Shown here in pieces: positions 32,202 through 43,455 of a DNA stretch of 64,000 nucleotides. Under the pieces are notes generated by a model, which was not told the DNA's origin, did no database searches, and worked only from the letters and a program-made list of their open reading frames with translations. The stretch comes from Candidatus Multivoradales bacterium (GTDB lineage: Bacteria; Acidobacteriota; Thermoanaerobaculia; Multivoradales; JAHEKO01). Made by a program: the position numbers and the translations under genes. Numbering within the stretch: the first letter of the stretch is position 1; every line of letters begins with the position of its first letter. Location of the stretch: contig CBDCXM010000009.1 in NCBI GenBank assembly GCA_965223855.1, forward strand, positions 672,001 through 736,000, written 5' to 3'.

Positions 32202-34040
32202 ATGCGAAAAACCACCCTTCTGGCCGCGCTCGCCTTCGCGCTCGTCGCGATGCCGGGCGCCGCCGACGACCTCGACTCCCAACGCCAGTCGCTCTTCGAT
32301 CGCGGGACGCGCCTGGAGCAGAACGCCGACAACCTCTCCGAGAGCGAGCGGCTGCAGGAGTTCCTCGACCTCTACTTCGAGTACGCGATGCTCGAGTTCC
32401 CCGAGTTCGCCACCTTCATCGGCGTGCCGGGCGATCACGGGCGCTGGACCGACAACTCACTCGCCGCCGAGGAGCGGCGCGAGCAGGAAGAGATCCGCGC
32501 CTACGAGATCCTCAAGTCGATCGACCGTGAGCAACTCGAAGGCGAAGACCGGCTCAACTACGACCTGCTCCACCACGACATGGGCGAGTCGATCGCCGGC
32601 CAGAAGTTCATGAACGAGTTCCTGGTGCTCAACCAGATGAACGGCGTCCACCAGAACATCTCGCAGATGACCGCCATGATGCCCGGGCGCTCGGTCGGCG
32701 ACTTCGAGAACATCCTCTCGCGCCTCGACGGTGTCGAGACGCTCGTGACCAACGCCATGGAACGGCTCCGCATGGGGCTCGAGAAGGGGGTCACGCCGCC
32801 CAAGGTCACCCTGCGCGACGTACCCGGTCAGATCGAAGCGCTCCTGACGGAAGACCCGAAGCAGAGCGCCCTGCTCGCCTCGTTCCAGCGGATGCCCGAA
32901 TCGATCGACGAGAGTGAGCGGGAACGGTTGATGGCGGAGGCCGTCGGCATCTACGAGCGCGAGCTCCGGCCGTCGTTTCAGGCACTCCACACCTTCCTCG
33001 TCGACGAGTACATCCCCGGCGCACGTGAGTCGATCGCCACCCGCGACCTTCCCGACGGCGCCGAGTGGTACGCCTTCAACGCCCGCCAGTCGACCACCAC
33101 CACCATGACGCCGCAGGAGATCCACGACATCGGCCTTTCCGAGGTCAAGCGGATCCGCGGCGAGATGGACCGGGTGATCGAGGAGTCGGGCTTCGAGGGC
33201 TCGTTCACCGAGTTCACCGACTTCCTGCGCACCGACCCGCAGTTCTACTTCGAGACCGCCGACGAGCTGCTGATGGCCTACCGCGACATCGCCAAGCGGG
33301 CCGACGCCAAGATGGTGAGCCTCTTCGGCACCCTGCCGCGCCTGCCCTACGGCATCGAGCCGGTGCCCGACTTCATGGCACCGTCGCAGACCACCGCGTA
33401 CTACCAGCCCGGCTCCCTCGAAGCGGGTCGCCCCGGCACCTACTTCGCCAACACCTACGCGCTCGACACGCGGCCGAAGTGGGAGATGGAGGCGCTCACC
33501 CTCCACGAGGCCGTCCCCGGCCACCACTTCCAGATCGCCCTCCAGCAGGAGATCGAGGACCTCGCCTGGTTCCGCCGCTTCGGCGGCTACGGCGCCTACA
33601 TCGAGGGCTGGGGCCTCTACTCCGAGAGCCTCGGCGAGGAGATCGGCTTCTACGAGGACCCGTACTCCAAGTTCGGCCAGCTCACCTACGAGATCTGGCG
33701 CGCCATCCGCCTCGTCGTCGATACCGGCATGCACTACCTCGGCTGGAGCCGTCAGGAGGCGATCGACTACTTCATCGCCAACACCGGCAAGCAGGAGCAC
33801 GACATCATCGTCGAAGTCGATCGCTACATCGTCTGGCCCGGCCAGGCGCTCTCGTACAAGATCGGCGAGCTCAAGATCAAAGAGCTCCGCAAGTGGGCCG
33901 AGACCGAGCTCGGCGACTCCTTCGACATCCGCGCCTTCCACGACGTCGTCCTCGGCAACGGCGCCCTCCCCCTCGACGTCCTCGAGATCCAGGTCAAGGA
34001 GTGGGTCGGCGGCGTCAAAGACGCCATGGCCTCCACCTGA
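32202..34040 (+). CDS. DUF885 family protein (secreted, metallopeptidase-like)
   Basis: Signal peptide; HEAVPGHHFQ, YIEGWGLYSE, RLVVDTGMH, WPGQALSYKIG; AGGAG SD. Confidence 0.92.
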   Translation: MRKTTLLAALAFALVAMPGAADDLDSQRQSLFDRGTRLEQNADNLSESERLQEFLDLYFEYAMLEFPEFATFIGVPGDHGRWTDNSLAAEERREQEEIRAYEILKSIDREQLEGEDRLNYDLLHHDMGESIAGQKFMNEFLVLNQMNGVHQNISQMTAMMPGRSVGDFENILSRLDGVETLVTNAMERLRMGLEKGVTPPKVTLRDVPGQIEALLTEDPKQSALLASFQRMPESIDESERERLMAEAVGIYERELRPSFQALHTFLVDEYIPGARESIATRDLPDGAEWYAFNARQSTTTTMTPQEIHDIGLSEVKRIRGEMDRVIEESGFEGSFTEFTDFLRTDPQFYFETADELLMAYRDIAKRADAKMVSLFGTLPRLPYGIEPVPDFMAPSQTTAYYQPGSLEAGRPGTYFANTYALDTRPKWEMEALTLHEAVPGHHFQIALQQEIEDLAWFRRFGGYGAYIEGWGLYSESLGEEIGFYEDPYSKFGQLTYEIWRAIRLVVDTGMHYLGWSRQEAIDYFIANTGKQEHDIIVEVDRYIVWPGQALSYKIGELKIKELRKWAETELGDSFDIRAFHDVVLGNGALPLDVLEIQVKEWVGGVKDAMAST

Positions 34041-34097: not shown

Positions 34098-34137
34098 CCC
34101 CTCCTTCCACCCGGGGTGGAGGCGTGCAACAACGCTA

Positions 34138-34310
34138 GGTCCGCGCCGGCCATTCGCGCTGAGAGCCGAGGGGGCTCGAACCGAGGCCCGAAAGCCTCGG
34201 CGACAGATCGCAGGCCGTCGGCCGAAGGTGAGAGAGCGCGCGTCGACGAGAGTCCTACCGAGTACGCGCGACGTCCCCCTCGGGCTCAGCGCGAATGGCC
34301 GGGGCGGACC
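34138..34310 (+). repeat. Structured dispersed repeat, copy A (conserved ~110-nt core in a ~35-bp closing stem)
   Basis: Arms GGTCCGCGCCGGCCATTCGCGCTGAG..CCGAGGGGG / CCCCCTCGG.CTCAGCGCGAATGGCCGGGGCGGACC; core shared with 42336-42471, 42521-42604 and 43113-43283. Confidence 0.85.
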
Positions 34311-34352
34311 GGCTCCCACCACCATCCTGACGCTCCCCATAGACTCCACCCC

Positions 34353-36746
34353 ATGCCCACCCTCTCCCCAGCCACCGCCCGAGCCCTCGAGCTCCCGTCG
34401 CTGCTCGCGGTGCTGGCCGAGTTCACCACCACCGGCCCCGGTCGCGATCTAGTCCTCGCCCTGACTCCCGACCTCGCCGATGACGAGCTCGATCTGAGGC
34501 GTCGCCGCTACGAGGAAGCCCGCGTCGCCCTCGTCGACGCACCCCTGATCGGCGCCCTCGATGTCGACGTCCCGCTGCTGCTCGAGCGGGTGGCCGACCC
34601 GCGGGCGCTGCTCGAAACCGCCGACGTCCTCGCCGCCGCCGACCTGTTGCGGGTCGTCGGGCGCTGTGCCACCCGTCTGCGCATGGACGACGCCGACCGC
34701 TTCCCGCTCCTTGCCGAACTCGTCGCCGACCTCCCCGAGACCCGCCCCTTCACCCGCCGGGTCGCCCAGGTGCTCGACCCCCGCGGCCGGGTGCGCGACG
34801 ACGCTTCGCCGAAGCTCGGCAAGCTGCGCAACCGCGTCGGCAAGCTGCGCGACCGCGTCTACGGCGAGCTCCAGGGCGCGGTAGGCCGGCACGCCGCCCA
34901 CCTGTCGGAGGAGACCATCCCGCTCCACGAGGGGCGGCTGGTTCTGCTCTTGAAGAGCGGCGCCCGCGGGCAGGTCGACGGCCTCGTCCACGGCCGCTCC
35001 GGCAGCGGCCGCAGCTTCTACTTCGAGCCGCTCTCCGCGGTCGAGAGCAACAACGAGCTGCGCTCGGCGATCGACGACGAGGAGGCCGAGCGCGCCCGTC
35101 TCGTCGCCGAGCTGCTGGAGGCGCTGCGAGAACTCGCACCGGCGCTCGAAGAGGCGGCCCGGATCACCGCCGAGCTCGACGCGCTGCAGGCGCTGTCGCG
35201 CTTCGCCGAACGCAGCGCCGCACGGCTCGCGGAGCTCGGAGACGAACGAGAGTTGAAGCTCGTCGGCGCCCGCCATCCGCTGCTCGATCCCGAGCTGGCG
35301 CCGGAGCGCGAGCGCGCCCTCGGCAGCCCCGGCCACCTGGAGCCGGTCGTGCCGCTCGATCTCGAGCTCGGCGGCGACGGCCGGCTGCTGGTCGTCACCG
35401 GACCCAACGCCGGCGGCAAGACGGTAGCGCTCAAGACCCTGGGGCTGCTGGCCGCCGCCACCGCCTGCGGAGTGCCGGTGCCGTGCGAGCGCGGCACCCG
35501 GCTGCCGCGCCTCGACCATCTCGTCGCCACCGTCGGCGACGAACAGGATCTGCTGCACGACCGATCCACCTTCAGTGCCCGCCTGCTGCGACTCGCCGAA
35601 GCGTGGGAGGCGGCCGGCGAGCGGACCCTGGTCCTGCTCGACGAACTCGGCTCGGGGACCGACCCCGACGAGGGCGCGGCGCTCGCCATCGCGCTCCTGG
35701 CCCACCTCCACGAGTCGGGCTCGCTGACACTCGTCACCACCCACCTGACCCGCGTCGCCGCCATGGCACTAGAGACCGAAGGCGCCCGGTGCGCGGCGAT
35801 GGAGTTCGACGCCCAGCGAGGAGTGCCCACCTTTCGCCTGCGCCCCGGCCGTCCGGGGGCGAGCGAAGCGCTGGCGCTGGCGACCCGGCTCCGCCTTCCC
35901 CAGCGGTGGATCCGGGAGGCCGAGCGCCTCGTCGATCCCGAGCGCCGGCGCCTGCAGGCGGTGCTCGACGAAGTCGAGCGGGAACGCCAGGCACTCGAGC
36001 AGGAGCGAGAGGAGGTCCGTGAGGCCCTCGACGCGGCCGAGGCGACTCGCGCCGAGGCCGACGCCGAACGCGCGGCGCTCGAGAGCGAACGGCGCTCGCT
36101 CGCCCGCCGCCTGAAGGCGCGCTTCGCCGCCTTCGAGGAAGAGGTGCGGGGGCGCCTCACCGCCGCCGAGGCGAGCCTGCGTGAGGAGTTGGCGGCCGGC
36201 AGCCGCAAGGGGGCCGGCGCCCGGCGGGCCGCCGAGCTGCTCGACGAGGCACCGCTCGAACTGATCGAGGGGGAACGCCCCGCCACGGTGCCGATCGAGG
36301 TCGGCGGGCGGGTGCGCCACCGCGGTCTCGGCTGGGAGGGGACGCTCGTCAGGCTCTCGCGCGGCAAGGCCGAGGTCTCGGTGCGAGGCAAGACGATGCG
36401 TTGCGGCGAGAACGATCTCGAAGGTCTCGCAGCCGACGACGACTCGGCTGGGAAGCCGGCTCGTCGACCCGCGACGCCGAAGCCCTCGACCTCCGCCGCC
36501 GGCACCGCCGAGATCGATCTCATCGGTCGCCGCGTCGACGCCGGCCTCGACGAACTCGACCGCCAGCTCGATCGGGCGCTGCTCGCGGGTCACGACACCG
36601 TGCGGGTCATCCACGGCCACGGCACCGGTCAGCTGCGCAAAGCGGTGCGGAAGCATCTCGTCGAGCACCCCGCTGTCCACAGCCACCGCCCGGGGGGAGA
36701 GGAGGAGGGCGGCGATGGCGCGACGATCGTCACCCTGGCGGGGTAG
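34353..36746 (+). CDS. mutS2: Endonuclease MutS2 (MutS ATPase + KOW + Smr)
   Basis: TGPNAGGKT, STFSA, LDELGSGTDP, TTH, coiled coil, Smr IHGHGTGQLRKAV...GGDGAT. Confidence 0.93.
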   Translation: MPTLSPATARALELPSLLAVLAEFTTTGPGRDLVLALTPDLADDELDLRRRRYEEARVALVDAPLIGALDVDVPLLLERVADPRALLETADVLAAADLLRVVGRCATRLRMDDADRFPLLAELVADLPETRPFTRRVAQVLDPRGRVRDDASPKLGKLRNRVGKLRDRVYGELQGAVGRHAAHLSEETIPLHEGRLVLLLKSGARGQVDGLVHGRSGSGRSFYFEPLSAVESNNELRSAIDDEEAERARLVAELLEALRELAPALEEAARITAELDALQALSRFAERSAARLAELGDERELKLVGARHPLLDPELAPERERALGSPGHLEPVVPLDLELGGDGRLLVVTGPNAGGKTVALKTLGLLAAATACGVPVPCERGTRLPRLDHLVATVGDEQDLLHDRSTFSARLLRLAEAWEAAGERTLVLLDELGSGTDPDEGAALAIALLAHLHESGSLTLVTTHLTRVAAMALETEGARCAAMEFDAQRGVPTFRLRPGRPGASEALALATRLRLPQRWIREAERLVDPERRRLQAVLDEVERERQALEQEREEVREALDAAEATRAEADAERAALESERRSLARRLKARFAAFEEEVRGRLTAAEASLREELAAGSRKGAGARRAAELLDEAPLELIEGERPATVPIEVGGRVRHRGLGWEGTLVRLSRGKAEVSVRGKTMRCGENDLEGLAADDDSAGKPARRPATPKPSTSAAGTAEIDLIGRRVDAGLDELDRQLDRALLAGHDTVRVIHGHGTGQLRKAVRKHLVEHPAVHSHRPGGEEEGGDGATIVTLAG

Positions 36747-36839
36747 ACGAAGGGTGGCCGCGGACGAGAATAGGGCGCGCTCACGGGGCGTTGCGCTGTT
36801 ACGTCAGGACCACTTCGCTTTGATAGAAACGCCCCCGCC

Positions 36840-38687
36840 ATGGCGGTAAGCCTGCTGACACGAGCCCCCATGGGCCGCACCCTCGCCCTCCTGGTCGCCG
36901 TGCTCCTGGCAACGGCTTTCCTGGCAACGGCTTCCCCGGCGACGGCGTTCTCCTCCACCGCTCGCGCCGCGGACACGTGGTTGCGTCTCGACACGCCGTC
37001 GTTCACCTTCTTCAGCAACGCGGGCGACGGCGTCACCCGGCGCTATGCGGCCGAGCTCGAGACGTTCCGCCGCTTCGTCGCCCGGGCGCTCGGCAACGGC
37101 GCCGTCGAAAGCCCGCTGCCGACCCACGTCTATCTGTTCCGCGGCGGCTTCGACGAGGTCAGTCTCGGGGAGGGCAACGTCGGATGGTTCACCACCTCGC
37201 GGCAGGCCAACGTCATCGCCGTCGATACCTCCTCGGCCGAGGGGCTCGAGATCGCGTACCACGAGTACGTCCACTTCGTCGTCGAGAACTCCACTCCGGC
37301 GGTGCCGCTGTGGCTCAACGAGGGGCTGGCGGAGTTCTACTCGACCTTCCGGGTGAGCGACGGCAACGTCGAGTTCGGGCGCGAGGTCGACCGCCACGTC
37401 GACTACCTGCGGCGGCACCGACTGATCCCGTTCGCCGATCTCTTCGCCGTCACCCGCGACTCCGACGACTACACGGAGGAGCGGCGGCGCGGCGTGTTCT
37501 ACGCCCAGTCGTGGGCGTTCGTGCACTACCTGCTGGTCGGGCGGCACGAGTTCGACATCGAGGTCGACGACTTCCTCCGCCGGCTGCGCGACGGAGTCGA
37601 AGCAGAGGAGGCTTACCGCGCCGCCTTCGGCACCTCGACCGTCGGTCTGCGACGCGACCTCGAACACTACGTCTCGCGGCCGGCCTTCGACTTTCTGCGC
37701 CTCGACGGACGCCCGCCGACCCCCGAGACCCTCGGCTGGGCGGCGATGCTCGACGACGCGGAGGCGACCGCCCGCCTCGGACTGCTGCAGACCGCCGGAC
37801 GGGTCGATCTAGCCGCAGCGGCCGATCGATTCCGCGAAGCCCTGGACCTCGACCCGGCCAACGCCACCGCGATGCGCGGCATGGGCGAGTTGGCTCTCCT
37901 CGCGGGCGACGACCGCCAGGCCGAGAGCTGGCTCGCCGAGGCGCAGCGCCATCGCAGCGGCGATCCGGCGCTCTACGACCTTCACGGCCTCGCCCTGCTC
38001 CAGGGGGCGGAGAACCTTCAGGTTGCCGAAGGCGACGCCCAGCGCGCTGCCGAACGGCGCCGGCTCGCCGAGCGCGCCCGTCACAGCTTCGCCCGCGCGA
38101 TCGATCTGTTGCCGTCATTCGCCCCTGCGCTCTCCGGCTACGGCCGCTCGTTCTTCTGGGAGGACGACCCGAGCGAAGGGATCCAGGTGTCGGCGCGCGC
38201 CGTGCGACTGCTGCCGCGCAACCCCTATCTGCTGTCGACCCATCTGGCGCTGGTGGCGCAGGCGGGAGATGTCGAATCGGCGCGGCGCGTCTACGCCTGG
38301 CTCAGGCGGCCGGCGGTACGCGCCGAGCCGCAGGTGCTCGCCGATGCCGACCGCGCACTCTTCAACGCCGAGTATCAGGCGCTGGTGCGAACCCATACGA
38401 CCCCGGCGAGCTACGGCGCACTGCTGGAAGGTCTGGAAGAGCTGAGTCGTCGCGCTCCCGATGCCGAGCTCGCCCGGGACCTCGACGCCAGGCTGGACGA
38501 GCTGCGGACGGTGGTGGAGCGCAACCGCTGGGCCGACACCTACAATCGAGCCCTCGAGCTGCTGGCCGCCGGCGAGCGGCGCAGCGCCCGCCGGCTGCTC
38601 GAAGACGTCGCCGACCAGCAGATCGACCGAGAGATCGCCGACGAGGCGCGGCGGTTGCTGCGAAGCTCCGCCGCCAGCGGTCGCTGA
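36840..38687 (+). CDS. Secreted DUF1570/gluzincin-like domain + TPR protein
   Basis: Signal peptide; HEYVH...PLWLNEGLAEFYS, FYAQSWAFVHYL; TPR-like C-half. Start may be 36870. Confidence 0.75.
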   Translation: MAVSLLTRAPMGRTLALLVAVLLATAFLATASPATAFSSTARAADTWLRLDTPSFTFFSNAGDGVTRRYAAELETFRRFVARALGNGAVESPLPTHVYLFRGGFDEVSLGEGNVGWFTTSRQANVIAVDTSSAEGLEIAYHEYVHFVVENSTPAVPLWLNEGLAEFYSTFRVSDGNVEFGREVDRHVDYLRRHRLIPFADLFAVTRDSDDYTEERRRGVFYAQSWAFVHYLLVGRHEFDIEVDDFLRRLRDGVEAEEAYRAAFGTSTVGLRRDLEHYVSRPAFDFLRLDGRPPTPETLGWAAMLDDAEATARLGLLQTAGRVDLAAAADRFREALDLDPANATAMRGMGELALLAGDDRQAESWLAEAQRHRSGDPALYDLHGLALLQGAENLQVAEGDAQRAAERRRLAERARHSFARAIDLLPSFAPALSGYGRSFFWEDDPSEGIQVSARAVRLLPRNPYLLSTHLALVAQAGDVESARRVYAWLRRPAVRAEPQVLADADRALFNAEYQALVRTHTTPASYGALLEGLEELSRRAPDAELARDLDARLDELRTVVERNRWADTYNRALELLAAGERRSARRLLEDVADQQIDREIADEARRLLRSSAASGR

Positions 38688-38798
38688 CGCCGACAGCTTC
38701 ATGCGACCACGCTGCGGCGCGGCGCCGGTTGATACTCTGACGGGCCGACCGCGCCGGCCGACCGTGGACCGACCGGCCGACCGGCCGCCCACCCACCC

Positions 38799-40547
38799 AT
38801 GGCTCTCGGCAACATCCAGCTCACTCCGCAGTTCGTCCAGGCGGTCCGCGACGCTGTCGACATCGTCGACATCGCCGGCGAGCACACCCGGCTGACGAAG
38901 GCCGGCCAGCGCTACAAGGGCCTGTGTCCGCTCCACAAAGAGAAGACACCGTCGTTCTCGATCGAGCCGGTGCAGGGTCTCTACTACTGCTTCGGCTGCG
39001 GCGAGGGGGGCGACGCGATCGACCTCTACATGAAGACCTCCGGGGACGACTTCCCGGCGGCGATCGAGGCGCTGGCAGGGCGTTACGGCGTGCCGCTGCC
39101 GGCACGCTCGAGCGGCAGCCGCCGCAGCGACGAGCCCGACGTAGAGGGAGCGTTGGCGGCCGCCCAGGAGTTCTTCCGCGACCGGCTCTCCCGGCACGAG
39201 ATGCCGCGCCGCTACCTGGAAAAGCGCGGCTTCGACAAGGAGCTCGTGGAACGCTTCGGTCTCGGCTACGCCCCTCCCGGCTGGGAGAACCTGCTCGAAA
39301 CGCTCCAGGGCAAGGTGCCGGTCAAGACGCTCGTCGCCGCCGGCCTCGTCGGCATCTCGCGCAAGTCGGGCAAGCACTACGACCGCTTCCGCGAGCGGCT
39401 GATGTTCCCGATCCACTCGTTGTCGGGCCGCATTCTCGGCTTCGGCGGTCGCGCGCTCGACGACGACAAGGCGAAGTACGTCAACACCGCCGAGACCGAG
39501 CGCTTCCACAAGGGATCGCTGCTCTATGGCATGCACCACGCCAAGCGGGCGTTGCGCGACGGCGGCAGGGTGCTTCTGGTCGAGGGCTACTTCGACCTGC
39601 TCGGCGCGGTCGCCGCCGGCATCGACTGGGTGGTCGCCAGCATGGGGACGGCGCTCACCGAGGAGCAGGCGCGTCTCATGGCCCGCTACGCCGAAGAGGT
39701 CTATGTTGCCTATGACGGTGACGAGGCGGGTGAGCGCGCCGCGCGCAAGGCGCTGCCGCTCCTGCTGGCCCACAACCTCGGCGTGCGGCGACTGCGTCTC
39801 GGGGAGGGTCACGATCCCGACTCGCTGCGCCTCGAGAAGGGAGCCGAGGCGCTGCTCGCAGCGGTGGAAGAGGCGCCCGACGCCGTCCAGCTCGAGTTCC
39901 AGCGGCTCGCCCCGCCGGGAGTCGGACGCGAGCCGCGCAAGCAGGCGGCGGCGGCGCGCGCGATCACCGAACTGCTCGAGCCGATCCCCGACGGCGTGCT
40001 GCGCTTCGGCTACGCCCGCCAGGCGGCCGACCGTCTCGGCGTGCCGTCGGATCTGTTGTGGCGGCGTCTCGGCGGCCGCGCCGACCTCGAGCAGGCACAG
40101 GCGCAGCGCCCGCGCGACACCGTGGTGCGCAGCGAGGAGGAGAAGCTGCTGCGCCTCCTGATCGTCGAGCGGGCCGAGATCGGCGCCGAGGAGTGGCCCG
40201 AACCGGAGGAGTTCTTCGATCGCGAGCTGCGGCGGATCTACGAAGCGTGGCGCCAGCTCGCCGAGGAGGAAGGCGCCCCCGAGCTTCGACCGCTCCTGGA
40301 GGCGCTCGGCGAAGAGGGTTCAACGGTTGCGAGATGGGCTCAGGATGACGTACAATTCCCGGCTGCTCAGGTCGGCGACGAGTACGACGCCGCCCGGGCG
40401 AAGTTGCGTCGTCGTTGGCAGCGTCAACGAGCGCGGGAATTGACGGCGAAAATCGCCGAGGCCGAGCGTCAGGGAGACACGGACACCGTGACCGCCCTGC
40501 TACAGGAAAAGGCCACCCTCAGCCGCGCCCTCCATACACGCCACTAG
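38799..40547 (+). CDS. dnaG: DNA primase
   Basis: [11 protein letters not shown]...CFGC zinc finger, [30 protein letters not shown]. Confidence 0.97.
40327..40356 (+). promoter_or_regulatory. Possible rpoD promoter internal to dnaG
   Basis: TTGCGA-18 nt-TACAAT in an AT-richer patch at the dnaG 3' end. Confidence 0.35.
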
Positions 40548-40590
40548 CGACCGCGTTCTCCCCCCACGGAATCGAAGGAGTCCAAAGAAC

Positions 40591-42288
<1,698 letters not shown>

Positions 42289-42291
42289 GCG

Positions 42292-42318
42292 TTCGAGCAG
42301 GACCTTCTCGGTAGGACC
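42292..42318 (-). repeat. Fragment E of the structured repeat (3' variant GTCCTACCGAGAAGGTCCT)
   Basis: Reverse complement ggtcctaccgagaaggtcctgctcgaa matches the tail of copy D (gtcctactgagcaggtccttcgcgaa). Confidence 0.5.
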
Positions 42319-42335
42319 CGGCCCCCTGACGGCAG

Positions 42336-42471
42336 CGGATCGTTGCCGCCAGGGGTACGTCGCGCGTACTCGGTAGGCACCTTCAGCGCGCGCTCTTTCG
42401 GCGTCGGACGGCCTGCGGTCTAGCGCCGTGGCTTTCGGGCCTCGCCTCGAGCCCCCTGGCAACAACGATCC
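42336..42471 (-). repeat. Structured dispersed repeat, copy C
   Basis: Arms CGGATCGTTGCCGCCAGGGG / CCCCTGGCAACAACGATCCG enclose the reverse complement of the shared core. Confidence 0.85.
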
Positions 42472-42520
42472 GACTCTGTAGTCGCGGTGAGTATCAGCGG
42501 ACCGCCTTCGCGAAGGACCT

Positions 42521-42604
42521 GCTCAGTAGGACGAGGGTCAGCGCGCGCTCTTTCGGCGTCGGCCGACGGCCTGCGGTCTACCGGAGTGGCTTTCGGGTCT
42601 CGCC
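42521..42604 (-). repeat. Structured dispersed repeat, copy D (partial, no closing stem)
   Basis: Reverse complement ggcgagacccgaaagcc...agaccgcaggccgtcggccgacgccgaaagagcgcgcgctga...gtcctactgag. Confidence 0.8.
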
Positions 42605-42692
42605 ATCGCCGACCGGAGGTCGGCGCAAGGACACAGCCCCCCAGGGCCGGCCCTGCCGGCCCCCAGGCAGCAGGGAGCCGCTGCCTGGCGAT

Positions 42693-43080
42693 CTACCGCC
42701 TTCTTGCTCTCACGGCCTTCAAAGCAAGGGTCCCAAGGCAACGGGCCAAGCTGCAAGGTCACACAGCTACCCGAGTCGTAAGAGAGAGTGCAAGTCGATC
42801 GAAAGTAGCCGAGGAAGAACGACCGATCCTCTCGACCCAATCGAGAGCCCAAAGCTGCAAGGTCATCGCTCCCAAGAAGGCAAACGAAGCGCTTGCGGTC
42901 TCGTGCATTGAACCGGGCTAGAACCGTTTCGACGCCGAAGAGCGGGAGCGCCAACGCGAACGCAGAGCCAATCAAGGTTACTCGCCCATTGCTCAGCTCT
43001 GCTCGCGGGAACGGCCATGCCGGCCAGGACGAGGACACTCCGCTTGGATGGCTTTTCCGATCTTCCTGCCTAGCACTGCA
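42693..43080 (-). pseudogene. Possible decayed membrane-protein gene in an AT-richer patch
   Basis: Hydrophobic stretches fall in different minus frames (VLVLAGMAV; VTLIGSAFALALPLFGV; FAFLGAMTLQLWAL); TAG at 42693 followed by hairpin 42663-42688. Confidence 0.3.
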
Positions 43081-43112
43081 CCTAGCAGGTACTGTCGGGA
43101 GACCCTCAGATA

Positions 43113-43283
43113 GGCCTCGCCCGCCCGGCAACCGGGTGCTCAGGGGGCTCGAAGCGAGGCCCGAAAGCCGTCGTGCCAGATCGCAAGCCGTCGGCCGAAC
43201 GCTGAGAGAGTGCGCGCTGAAGGTCGTCCTACCCAGTACGCGCGACGTCCCCCTGGGCACCGGGTTGCCGGACGTGCGAGGCC
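43113..43283 (+). repeat. Structured dispersed repeat, copy B
   Basis: Arms GGCCTCGCCCGCCCGGCAACCGGGTGCTCAGGGGG / CCCCCTGGGCACCGGGTTGCCGGACGTGCGAGGCC around the shared core. Confidence 0.85.
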
Positions 43284-43315
43284 GGTCGTACCACCCAATC
43301 GACGCCCGGCGCTGA

Positions 43316-43344
43316 TTGACACAAGTGCCGCCCCTACTTAGGAT
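43316..43344 (+). promoter_or_regulatory. sigma70 promoter of tRNA-Asn
   Basis: TTGACA-17 nt-TAGGAT followed by a GC-rich discriminator. Confidence 0.75.
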
Positions 43345-43380: not shown

Positions 43381-43455
43381 TCCTCGGTAGCTCAGTGGTA
43401 GAGCGGTCGGCTGTTAACCGATTGGTCGGCGGTTCGAATCCGTCCCGGGGAGCCA
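43381..43455 (+). tRNA. tRNA-Asn(GTT)
   Basis: TCCTCGG acceptor, GGTAGAGC D-arm, TCGG-CTGTTAA-CCGA anticodon arm, GGTTCGAATCC, encoded 3' CCA. Confidence 0.97.

What the first reader, a model, noticed from the sequence alone, without database searches (positions are those of the whole stretch)
34138..43283. Undescribed dispersed structured element: conserved ~110-nt core held in long closing stems of different sequence
Seen: three full copies (34138-34310 +, 42336-42471 -, 43113-43283 +) and two partial ones (42521-42604, 42292-42318) share the core GGGGG-CTCGAnnCGAG-GCCCGAAAGCC-N8-AGAYCGCARGCCGT(CGG)CCGA..GARAGAGYGCGCG..GA....CCTACCnAGTACGCGCGACGTnCCCC. Each full copy is closed by a 20-37 bp near-perfect stem whose sequence differs between copies while pairing is kept, so structure appears selected rather than just recently duplicated. 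The core has hairpin-like modules and a GAAA/GAGA swap that preserves a GNRA pattern. All copies are intergenic. Inference: a multi-copy structured ncRNA (possibly a ribozyme or RNase III-excised RNA) or a non-autonomous mobile element. The CCTAC (GTAGG on the other strand) recalls GTAG-type REPs handled by RAYT transposases. I cannot match it to any RNA family I know.
Basis: partly seen in the sequence, partly recalled or inferred. Interest (0 to 1): 0.8.

Follow-up and report, generated by a model that had tools for sequence, protein, structure and literature searches.

The report
Dispersed structured repeat family in Thermoanaerobaculia
The window holds copies of a non-coding repeat, not in the RNA family library and not found in my two paper searches, that folds into a long hairpin around a conserved three-way junction, sits at different places in related species, and is probably a structure-dependent mobile element whose moving enzyme is unknown.

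Summary
The window has three full copies and one partial copy. The genome has 21 copies. All those examined lie between the genes I called.

Each copy has a 100-nt core: a P2 arm with two GA-rich internal loops, a P3 GC hairpin, and a 4-nt ACGU linker. A 20-40 bp stem (P1) closes the core. Its middle 15 nt differ between copies but stay paired.

Covariation is strong: 23 of 28 pairs change on both sides, and 92.6% of cells are paired against 35-57% in slid controls. Stem mismatches are G-U 51 versus A-C 15, so one strand is selected to fold.

Sites filled here are empty in congeners, and the reverse also occurs. Copies also form head-to-head pairs and tandem arrays.

A refined model finds the family in 34 of 151 genomes of the order and in 0 of 114 from other orders of the class.

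There is no Rfam match, and no neighbouring transposase, reverse transcriptase or TnpB.

Best reading (0.45): a non-autonomous mobile element resembling REP/BIME repeats, recognised through its fold. Main rival: a processed non-coding RNA family. No expression data were available.

The parts
34126..34324 (+). Full copy A, from 5' leader to 3' tail. P1 5' arm 34138-34174, core 34175-34274, P1 3' arm 34275-34310, tail ending about 34324.
   Evidence: Sequence. Fold -123.9 kcal/mol, z -8.06. R1 134.6 bits. It lies between the DUF885 gene (stop at 34040) and mutS2 (ATG near 34354).
34175..34236 (+). P2 arm of copy A: CUC-[GA]-NCC-[GA]-GG ... CC-[GAA]-GGU-[GAGA]-GAG, with a variable distal part.
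   Evidence: Consensus structure and pair counts. Helices 2-5 show changes on both sides of pairs.
34237..34270 (+). P3 hairpin of copy A: CGCGCG stem with a 22-nt loop ending CCUACCGAGUA. The linker ACGU (34271-34274) follows.
   Evidence: helix 6: 5 of 6 pairs change on both sides across 47 copies.
42292..42489 (-). Full copy B. The 3' tail (42292-42335) starts 3 nt after the rpoD stop codon. Hairpin and core 42336-42471. 5' leader 42472-42489.
   Evidence: 104.3 bits. The junction with the rpoD stop is shown.
42490..42626 (-). Partial, variant copy C. The 5' arm of P1 is replaced by another small hairpin module and the 3' part is missing.
   Evidence: R1 36.5 bits, R2 59 bits, nhmmer profile positions 21-107. 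It shares its variant 5' module with the copy at genome C9:1914152.
42627..43099 (.). Non-coding spacer between the 5' ends of the head-to-head copies. It is part of the block missing in congeners.
   Evidence: No sigma-70-like promoter was found in it.
43100..43298 (+). Full copy D, head-to-head partner of B and C. Hairpin 43113-43283, tail ending about 43298, just upstream of the tRNA promoter.
   Evidence: z -5.71; 113.8 bits. Right junction.
42292..43298 (.). The whole block of about 1 kb (B, C, spacer, D) that is present here and absent in four congeneric genomes.
   Evidence: In G001-G004 the rpoD stop is followed after a short spacer (at most about 35 nt) by the tRNA promoter TTGACA-N17-TAGGAT.

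Best explanation
This is a family of non-autonomous mobile intergenic elements. A unit is 200-330 bp including leader and tail. Its propagation depends on the fold of one strand.

The sense strand, as single-stranded DNA or as a transcript, forms a long hairpin (P1) that presents a conserved three-way junction (P2 with two GA-rich internal loops, P3, and the ACGU linker).

I infer that this junction, plus the inner 17 bp of P1 with its conserved bulge, is the recognition module for an enzyme encoded elsewhere in the genome. The middle of P1 then only has to be paired, so it drifts by compensatory change.

Copies land in short intergenic spacers, often right after stop codons. They accumulate as head-to-head pairs and tandem arrays, as REP/BIME repeats do.

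Shown: the family, its structure and covariation, the strand asymmetry, insertion polymorphism, and the lack of a linked gene.

Inferred: mobilisation in trans, the single-stranded intermediate, and which enzyme does it.
For: Multi-copy and dispersed.
- 21 copies in G000 next to unrelated housekeeping genes (58 flanking proteins, none a transposase or reverse transcriptase).

Insertion polymorphism.
- The rpoD-tRNA site is empty in 4 of 4 congeners.
- The relA-pilM site is short in 4 of 4 congeners: flank matches 17-79 nt apart against about 350-400 nt in G000.
- The fumC site is empty in G001.
- Two G002 copies have empty sites in G000: 77 and 134 bp against about 358 and 411 bp.
- Copy number among five congeners is 21, 20, 1, 0, 0.

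Recent burst.
- 10 G002 copies are near-identical in core, stem, leader and tail.

Structure is selected.
- 23 of 28 pairs show double changes.
- 92.6% of cells are paired against 35-57% in slid controls, and 0 of 500 shuffles reach this.
- An independent set of 33 copies from other genera gives 17 of 28 pairs and 81.9%.

One strand folds.
- P1 mismatches in 43 copies are G-U 51, A-C 15, other 64.

Resident copies decay.
- The orthologous pair G156/G171 has flanks about 94% identical. The G171 copy carries 5 unpaired positions and 1 gap in its stem.
- This fits selection acting at propagation rather than at each locus.

Arrangement.
- G000 has four head-to-head arrangements: three pairs and the rpoD block. 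There is a decayed partner at relA and a four-unit tandem array with a period of about 205 nt.

No promoter of its own.
- None was found in two pair regions.
Against: - No mobilising enzyme was identified. None of the 16 Y1_Tnp hits lies near a copy.
- The roughly 300-aa Y1-like family occurs in 34 of 45 family genomes, against 9 of 45 for the element with model R1. It is present in G003 (10 hits, no element) and was not found in G022, which has the element.
- The RAYT-like gene carries other repeats.
- No clear target-site duplication or fixed target emerged from the junctions read.
- Termini are less conserved than the core and differ between subfamilies. That is the reverse of ordinary transposon ends and is what a functional RNA would show.
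- Core sequence and fold are kept across four families of an order. That is long persistence for a purely selfish repeat.
- The replication-strand bias is strong in G000 (11 of 12 unpaired copies) but weak elsewhere (22 of 33).
Confidence: 0.45

Rival explanations
1. A multi-copy family of genuine non-coding RNA genes. The sense transcript is cut out of longer precursors by RNase III at the long P1 stem. The 100-nt junction RNA then acts in trans, for example as a protein scaffold or a regulator. Mobility is only how the gene family spreads.
For: - The core is better conserved than the ends, with covariation in P1, P2 and P3.
- G-U exceeds A-C 51 to 15, against the direction expected from replication- or transcription-linked deamination on the opposite strand.
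- The internal loops are GA-rich and some copies have a GNRA-type GAAA loop.
- The near-perfect 20-40 bp duplexes are classical RNase III substrates (established knowledge, not tested here).
- The tandem arrays could be polycistronic precursors.
- The sense strand tends to lie opposite the leading strand (33 of 45 copies), where most genes usually lie (recalled). This could mean the sense RNA is harmful inside mRNAs.
Against: - No sigma-70-type promoter lies next to copies, while the neighbouring tRNA promoter is found easily.
- 5' leaders differ between copies beyond about 15-55 nt.
- There is no T-rich terminator after the 3' arm.
- Orientation relative to neighbouring genes is mixed.
- The one orthologous pair examined shows decay.
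- There is no Rfam relative.
Confidence: 0.27
2. A host-used cis element of the REP kind. Placed after genes, the hairpin protects the 3' ends of mRNAs, stops read-through between convergent genes, or binds nucleoid or topoisomerase proteins. The conserved core is a protein-binding site.
For: - Five G000 copies lie 0-21 nt from the stop codon of a convergent gene (relA, rpoD, thiI, an alkylation-repair gene, a sulfotransferase). Two G002 copies do the same.
- Copies lie between convergent or co-directional genes, as reported for REPs (PMC3733652, abstract read).
Against: - In those cases the adjoining gene would transcribe the antisense of the strand that the G-U excess marks as the folding one.
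- Sites are empty in sister species with no visible replacement.
- A plain hairpin would do for this job, so a 100-nt junction conserved with covariation is not explained.
Confidence: 0.12
3. A retro-mobile RNA of the SINE kind. The folded sense RNA is copied back into DNA by a reverse transcriptase encoded elsewhere.
For: - RVT_1 hits occur only in the two multi-copy congeners: G000 has 1 and G002 has 3, against 0 in G001, G003 and G004.
- The 3' tail junctions are tight against flanking genes, while the 5' sides are ragged.
Against: - No copy lies at any of the four reverse-transcriptase loci, even with filters off.
- The G000 hit is weak (47.5 bits).
- There is no poly-A or other 3' priming signature, and no promoter.
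- Two of the three genomes without a hit are only 77-80% complete.
Confidence: 0.06

Closest known systems
REP / BIME / REPIN repeats mobilised by RAYT (Y1 HUH) transposases
   Same: - Intergenic, multi-copy and palindromic.
- Placed after genes.
- Predominantly head-to-head dimers and clusters.
- A GTAG-like tag at the 5' foot in part of the copies, and short unpaired tails.
- Hairpin arms that co-evolve.
(PMC3733652: abstract and the CGTC section read. PMC3116915 and PMC3337134: abstracts only, from the search listing. Here.)
   Different: - The unit is 5-8 times longer.
- The loop is a 100-nt conserved three-way junction.
- The stem sequence is not conserved within a genome.
- The GTAG tag is absent in the g27 subfamily.
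- No RAYT gene is flanked by these copies.
Repeated 'atypical secondary structures' that flank class 3 TnpA-Y1 genes in Acidobacteria and Planctomycetes
   Same: Same phylum. They are high-copy DNA secondary structures tied to HUH enzymes and described as intermediate between IS and REPtron (PMC6006769, Class 3 section and matching passages read).
   Different: - Those structures flank the enzyme gene and carry a CnGA foot. Ours flank no Y1 gene.
- I could not see that paper's Figure 7 or its supplementary table, so identity with one of their structures is not excluded.
Hairpin-forming MITEs such as ERIC and the Neisseria Correia elements (recalled, no call)
   Same: Non-autonomous repeats of 100-200 bp that fold as long RNA hairpins when transcribed and affect mRNA processing.
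   Different: Those have conserved terminal inverted repeats and defined target duplications, with variable interiors. Here the interior is conserved and the stem is variable. Target duplication is unresolved.
Bridge or seek RNAs of IS110/IS1111 elements (recalled)
   Same: Structured RNA of about 150-200 nt with internal loops. IS110-family genes are abundant in carrier genomes: 14 hits in G160 and 21 in G171.
   Different: Those RNAs are encoded inside the IS next to the recombinase. Only 2 of 12 IS110 loci examined have a copy within about 1.5 kb. G000 has 21 copies but a single IS110 hit in a short open frame of 206 aa.

Membership tests
REP/REPIN-RAYT system | Short palindromic unit of 20-40 bp | tested here: not met
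   The hairpin plus core spans 136-173 nt, and the full unit is 200-330 nt.
REP/REPIN-RAYT system | Conserved GTAG (or CGTC) tetranucleotide at the foot of the hairpin | tested here: inconclusive
   GTAGG is present in 6 of 18 G000 copies read, and NTAGG in 11 of 18. It is present in most G002 copies. It is absent in g27 copies, whose leader reads CCGACGACCTCCAGCC.
REP/REPIN-RAYT system | A RAYT gene flanked by the same repeats (REPtron) | tested here: not met
   There are 16 PF01797 hits in G000 and none adjoins a copy (coordinates). The classical RAYT-like gene at C9:452706-453365 is flanked by an inverted GGTGACAGGATACC-type repeat.
REP/REPIN-RAYT system | Head-to-head dimers and clusters | tested here: met
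   Four head-to-head arrangements in G000, more in G002, and tandem arrays in G120 and G160.
MITE derived from a DDE transposon | Conserved terminal inverted repeats, a target-site duplication, and a related autonomous IS | tested here: inconclusive
   A 9-bp GGTAGGNCC / GGNCCTACC inverted pair at the ends is seen only in some G000 copies. No consistent duplication appears at five junctions. No IS sharing these ends was found, but no full IS census was made.
IS200/IS605 derivatives (PATE, TnpB guide RNA) | Presence of TnpB, or an IS200/IS605 element with matching ends | tested here: not met
   PF07282 gives 0 hits in 5 of 5 congeneric genomes, while 8 of 14 control genomes are detected.
IS110/IS1111 bridge RNA | Encoded within the IS end next to the DEDD recombinase gene | tested here: not met
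   2 of 12 IS110 loci have a copy nearby. G000 has one IS110 hit, in a short open frame of 206 aa, against 21 copies of the element.
Retron non-coding RNA | Immediately next to a retron reverse transcriptase | tested here: not met
   Four RVT_1 loci in G000 and G002 were scanned with filters off. The best score was 12.2 bits.
Any Rfam 15 family, including the self-cleaving ribozymes | A score at or above the family's gathering threshold | tested here: not met
   The whole window gives only two tRNAs. Copy A at E up to 10 gives only Xoo1 (13.9 bits against a threshold of 70) and a CRISPR repeat (12.2 against 35).

The most novel reading that the evidence does not exclude
The element is a new kind of self-propagating structured nucleic acid. 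Its conserved three-way junction would itself be an active module, for example an unrecognised ribozyme or the specific handle of a dedicated nuclease or recombinase. The hypervariable, perfectly paired mid-stem would be a processed or programmable segment rather than a passive spacer. That would make it a mobile RNA or single-stranded DNA device with no described counterpart.
Probability: 0.15. Interest if true: 0.9.

Novelty: new variant of a known kind. Interest (0 to 1): 0.62.

Why it matters
Structured interspersed repeats have been studied mostly in Proteobacteria. This one comes from a little-studied class of Acidobacteriota known to me mainly from metagenome bins.

It inverts the usual layout: the centre is conserved and folded, the arms are free to vary but paired. 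It has persisted across at least four families of an order.

Three uses follow.
- It is a clean test case for separating selection on RNA from selection on single-stranded DNA structure.
- It is a marker for strain typing and assembly breaks in these genomes.
- It is bait for finding the enzyme that recognises it.

If the junction proves catalytic, or is the handle of a new nuclease, it would be of wider interest.

Tried and rejected
- **Rfam.** Searched at gathering and at permissive thresholds. Nothing.
- **Pattern scan of genome contigs**. 10 loci: 5 on one public MAG titled Thermoanaerobaculia bacterium, carrying real copies. I rescored the other 5 with R1 and read them as chance hits: 3 scored 12.7-13.9 bits and 2 were not listed.
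- **Pattern scan of metagenome contigs.** 5 loci, 0 confirmed by the model. The exact-pattern approach only reaches close relatives.
- **Plasmid and phage collections.** No match by distant blastn.
- **Sequencing runs.** No RNA holder listed.
- **Shared neighbour.** A penicillin amidase neighbours a copy in both G000 and G156, but the two proteins are 24% identical, so this is not synteny.
- **Orthology of four g27 copies.** Only G156/G171 are clearly orthologous, G113 partly, and G160 not. I therefore dropped the claim of compensation in place.
- **Genes between head-to-head pairs.** In G160 and G171 there is nothing transposase-like: one TPR protein, and one IS110 gene that proved not to be a general association.
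- **A short REP family with GTAGGTCC feet.** GGTAGGTCC occurs 24 times in the genome, which by my estimate is not above chance. Only 2 of those lie at copies.
- **Mid-stem as a guide.** 14-mers of 17 stems hit other loci only at a level that I estimate to be chance for this G+C content. The longest runs are 17 nt.
- **Pseudoknot between the P3 loop and distal P2.** Read by eye only. It was not consistent across copies.
- **Conserved upstream region.** Beyond the leader, only partner copies match.
Full report
**What is there**

Copy A (34138-34310, +) has three parts:
- a 37-nt 5' arm,
- a 100-nt core,
- a 36-nt 3' arm.

It folds at -123.9 kcal/mol with z = -8.06. Copy D (43113-43283, +) has z = -5.71. 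Copy B (42336-42471, -) and the partial copy C (42490-42626, -) are real. The "partial copy" at 42292-42318 is the 3' tail of copy B.

**Family size in this genome**

- blastn of the core finds 18 places.
- A covariance model (R1) built from 24 copies finds 21.
- An nhmmer profile built from 47 copies also finds 21.
- No called gene contains a copy. Two called frames overlap a copy's edge by 6 and 11 nt, and one over-extended frame crosses copy A.
- The 58 flanking proteins scanned are ordinary housekeeping genes with nothing in common: cytochrome oxidase, CorA, ThiI, UvrD, RelA/SpoT, PilM, ThrRS, L20, fumarase, AcrB, MutS2, RpoD and others. None is a transposase or reverse transcriptase.

**Structure**

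RNAalifold gives a three-way junction.
- P1 is the closing stem. Its inner end is GGGGG/CCCCC, and many copies carry a conserved AG/G irregularity about 8 bp out.
- P2 is an arm in which 3-bp helices (CUC/GAG, GCC/GGC) alternate with GA-rich internal loops (GA opposite GARA, and GA opposite GAM). Its distal part is variable.
- P3 is a CGCGCG hairpin with a 22-nt loop ending CCUACCGAGUA.
- ACGU links P3 back to P1.

On 47 copies from several genera (A7):
- 92.6% of cells pair, against 35-57% when partners are slid;
- 23 of 28 pairs show changes on both sides;
- 0 of 500 shuffles reach any of the five measures.

That alignment was fitted to the model, so it leans towards the structure. A second set of 33 copies from other genera (A9) gives 81.9% paired, 17 of 28 pairs with double changes, and slid controls of 33-54%.

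**The variable stem**

I compared four copies whose cores are 81-91% identical and whose inner stems are 76-100% identical. The middle 15 nt of the stem are only 35-69% identical between them. In each copy that segment is nevertheless close to the reverse complement of its partner.

Every homologue folded has a long closing stem of unrelated sequence. The exceptions are degenerate copies such as C8:177946.

**Which strand folds**

I used 43 of the 47 A7 copies. I dropped two partial copies, one palindromic artefact hit, and one truncated G002 copy. Aligning the 5' arm to the reverse complement of the 3' arm gives:

| Class | Count |
|---|---|
| Watson-Crick | 1246 |
| G-U | 51 |
| A-C | 15 |
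| Other mismatches | 64 |
| Gaps | 59 |

A-C here would be G-U on the other strand, so the strand as modelled is the one selected to pair. The copies are related, so these counts overstate the number of independent events. Still, the excess holds separately in G000 copies (about 25 against 6, my hand tally of the per-copy rows) and in the distant copies (about 19 against 7).

The excess cannot separate RNA from single-stranded DNA, because G-T wobble is tolerated in both.

**Mobility**

*Sites filled in G000 and empty in congeners*
- At rpoD-tRNA, four congeners have the rpoD stop, then a short spacer (at most about 35 nt), then the tRNA promoter TTGACA-N17-TAGGAT. G000 carries a block of about 1 kb (42292-43298) made of B, C, a 470-nt spacer and D.
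- At relA-pilM, the two flank matches are 17-79 nt apart in the four congeners and about 350-400 nt apart in G000. Here the element's end supplies the TAG stop codon of relA, and a decayed partner copy lies upstream.
- At fumC, G001 has 46 nt between flank matches where G000 has about 300.

*The reverse*
- Two G002 copies sit where G000 has 77 and 134 bp. In one of them G000 has only about 6-8 nt between two convergent stop codons.
- One locus, between thrS and rplT, is filled in both species.

*Copy number and age*
- Model R1 finds 21, 20, 1, 0 and 0 copies in the five congeners. Two of them are only 77-80% complete.
- Ten G002 copies are near-identical across core, stem, a leader of about 55 nt and a tail of about 75 nt. 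This points to a recent burst and shows that stems are inherited.

**Arrangement**

- G000 has four head-to-head arrangements (5' ends facing): three pairs with spacers of about 144-197 bp, and the rpoD block with a 505-bp gap.
- G120 has a four-unit tandem array with a period of about 205 nt, in which arms appear to have been exchanged between units.
- In 20 regions of 20 kb centred on 20 known copies, 13 further copies turned up.

**Distribution**

Five contigs hit by an exact pattern belong to a public MAG titled Thermoanaerobaculia bacterium (Acidobacteriota). They carry G002-type copies.

R1 found the family in 9 of 45 genomes of the family. The refined model R2 found it in 34 of 151 genomes of the order:

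| Family | Genomes with a match (G000 not counted) |
|---|---|
| f1 | 14 of 22 |
| f8 | 16 of 21 (genus g27: 16 of 19) |
| f10 | 2 of 10 |
| f7 | 1 of 21 |
| Eight other families | 0 of 76 |

It was found in 0 of 114 genomes from other orders of the class.

Three cautions apply. These tallies include the unpublished genome G005. In the order and class searches the tool scored at most 22 candidates per genome, so counts of 17-22 are lower bounds. E-values from my models are rough.

**Resident copies**

G156 and G171 carry an orthologous copy, with flanks about 94% identical over 1.2 kb on both sides. One stem position is compensated. However, the G171 copy has 5 unpaired stem positions and a gap. 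Pairing therefore looks selected when copies propagate rather than maintained at each locus.

**Search for a partner**

- TnpB: none in the five congeners.
- Reverse transcriptase: 1 weak hit in G000 and 3 in G002, with no copy nearby even with filters off.
- Y1 HUH transposase domain: 16 hits in G000, 10 in G002, 3 in G003, and 0 in G001 and G004.
- Most of these Y1 hits belong to a family of about 300 aa. That family has 27 tblastn matches in G000 and occurs in 34 of 45 family genomes. It does not track the element and has its own 145-nt tandem repeat downstream.
- A classical RAYT-like gene is flanked by a different inverted repeat.
- IS110-family genes are abundant in g27 genomes, but only 2 of 12 such loci have a copy nearby.

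**Promoters and orientation**

No sigma-70-type promoter was found in two pair regions, while the tRNA promoter scores 10 of 12. Orientation relative to neighbouring genes is mixed.

GC skew places the origin near 760 kb and the terminus near 2.98 Mb on C9. I set aside 9 copies that lie in head-to-head blocks. Of the 12 unpaired G000 copies, 11 have the folding strand on the lagging-strand sequence.

In four other genomes the same rule holds for 22 of 33 copies judged by local skew, or 18 of 29 with tandem units collapsed. This is a modest bias. It may reflect replication or the direction of gene transcription.

**Reading**

The data establish a real structured, mobile, gene-less repeat family. 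I found no description of it: it has no Rfam match, and my two paper searches turned up nothing on it.

The layout (head-to-head dimers, arrays, placement after genes, a GTAG-like foot in part of the copies) is closest to REP/BIME/REPIN repeats. For these I read the abstract and one section of PMC3733652. I saw PMC3116915 and PMC3337134 only as abstracts in the search listing.

It is also close to the high-copy secondary structures reported beside class 3 Y1 genes in Acidobacteria (PMC6006769, Class 3 section and passages read; its figure and supplement were not seen).

It fails the defining tests of each of those families. I therefore file it as a new variant of that kind, not as a member.

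The conserved junction, and termini that are less conserved than the centre, keep the RNA-gene reading alive. Expression data would decide between the two.

Noticed in passing
G000 C9:525706-526617 and about 26 other places (outside the window); repeat at C9:525160-525614: A multi-copy family of proteins of about 300 aa with a Y1 HUH transposase-like N-terminal domain (motifs NHAH and RYLLEQG). It has 27 tblastn matches in G000 and occurs in 34 of 45 genomes of the family. A different 145-nt repeat is tandemly arranged just downstream of at least one copy.
   Followed up: partly
G000 C9:452706-453365; related repeats at C8:510448-510487 and after C8:514425: A classical RAYT-like gene (219 aa) is flanked by inverted GGTGACAGGATACC-type repeats. 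The same short repeat follows the 3' tails of two element copies on C8.
   Followed up: partly
window 43316-43344 and 43381-43452: A tRNA gene with a promoter TTGACA-N17-TAGGAT that is conserved in all five congeners. It gives a working promoter consensus for this genus.
   Followed up: yes
window 42700-42870: The spacer inside the 1-kb insertion looks lower in G+C by eye and holds two copies of AAGCTGCAAGGTCA about 110 nt apart. Its origin is unknown.
   Followed up: no
G000 C9, about 760 kb (window ends at 736 kb): The cumulative GC-skew minimum, the likely replication origin, lies about 24 kb beyond the window's right end. The maximum is near 2.98 Mb.
   Followed up: partly
G160:C1 and G171:C1 (loci L203, L204, L207, L208, L211, L212): Bursts of IS110-family elements: 12 hits with the same score in G160, and 11 plus 8 in G171. 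One lies about 130 nt from an element copy.
   Followed up: partly
window 34116-36746: The longest open frame for mutS2 runs across copy A. The likely true start is the ATG near 34354, as the alignment with G004 suggests.
   Followed up: partly
L035 (G002:C32:42002-45136), around 1393-1750: In one G002 copy the usual 5' leader is replaced by an inverted duplicate of the 3' tail, which extends the hairpin to about 50 bp.
   Followed up: no
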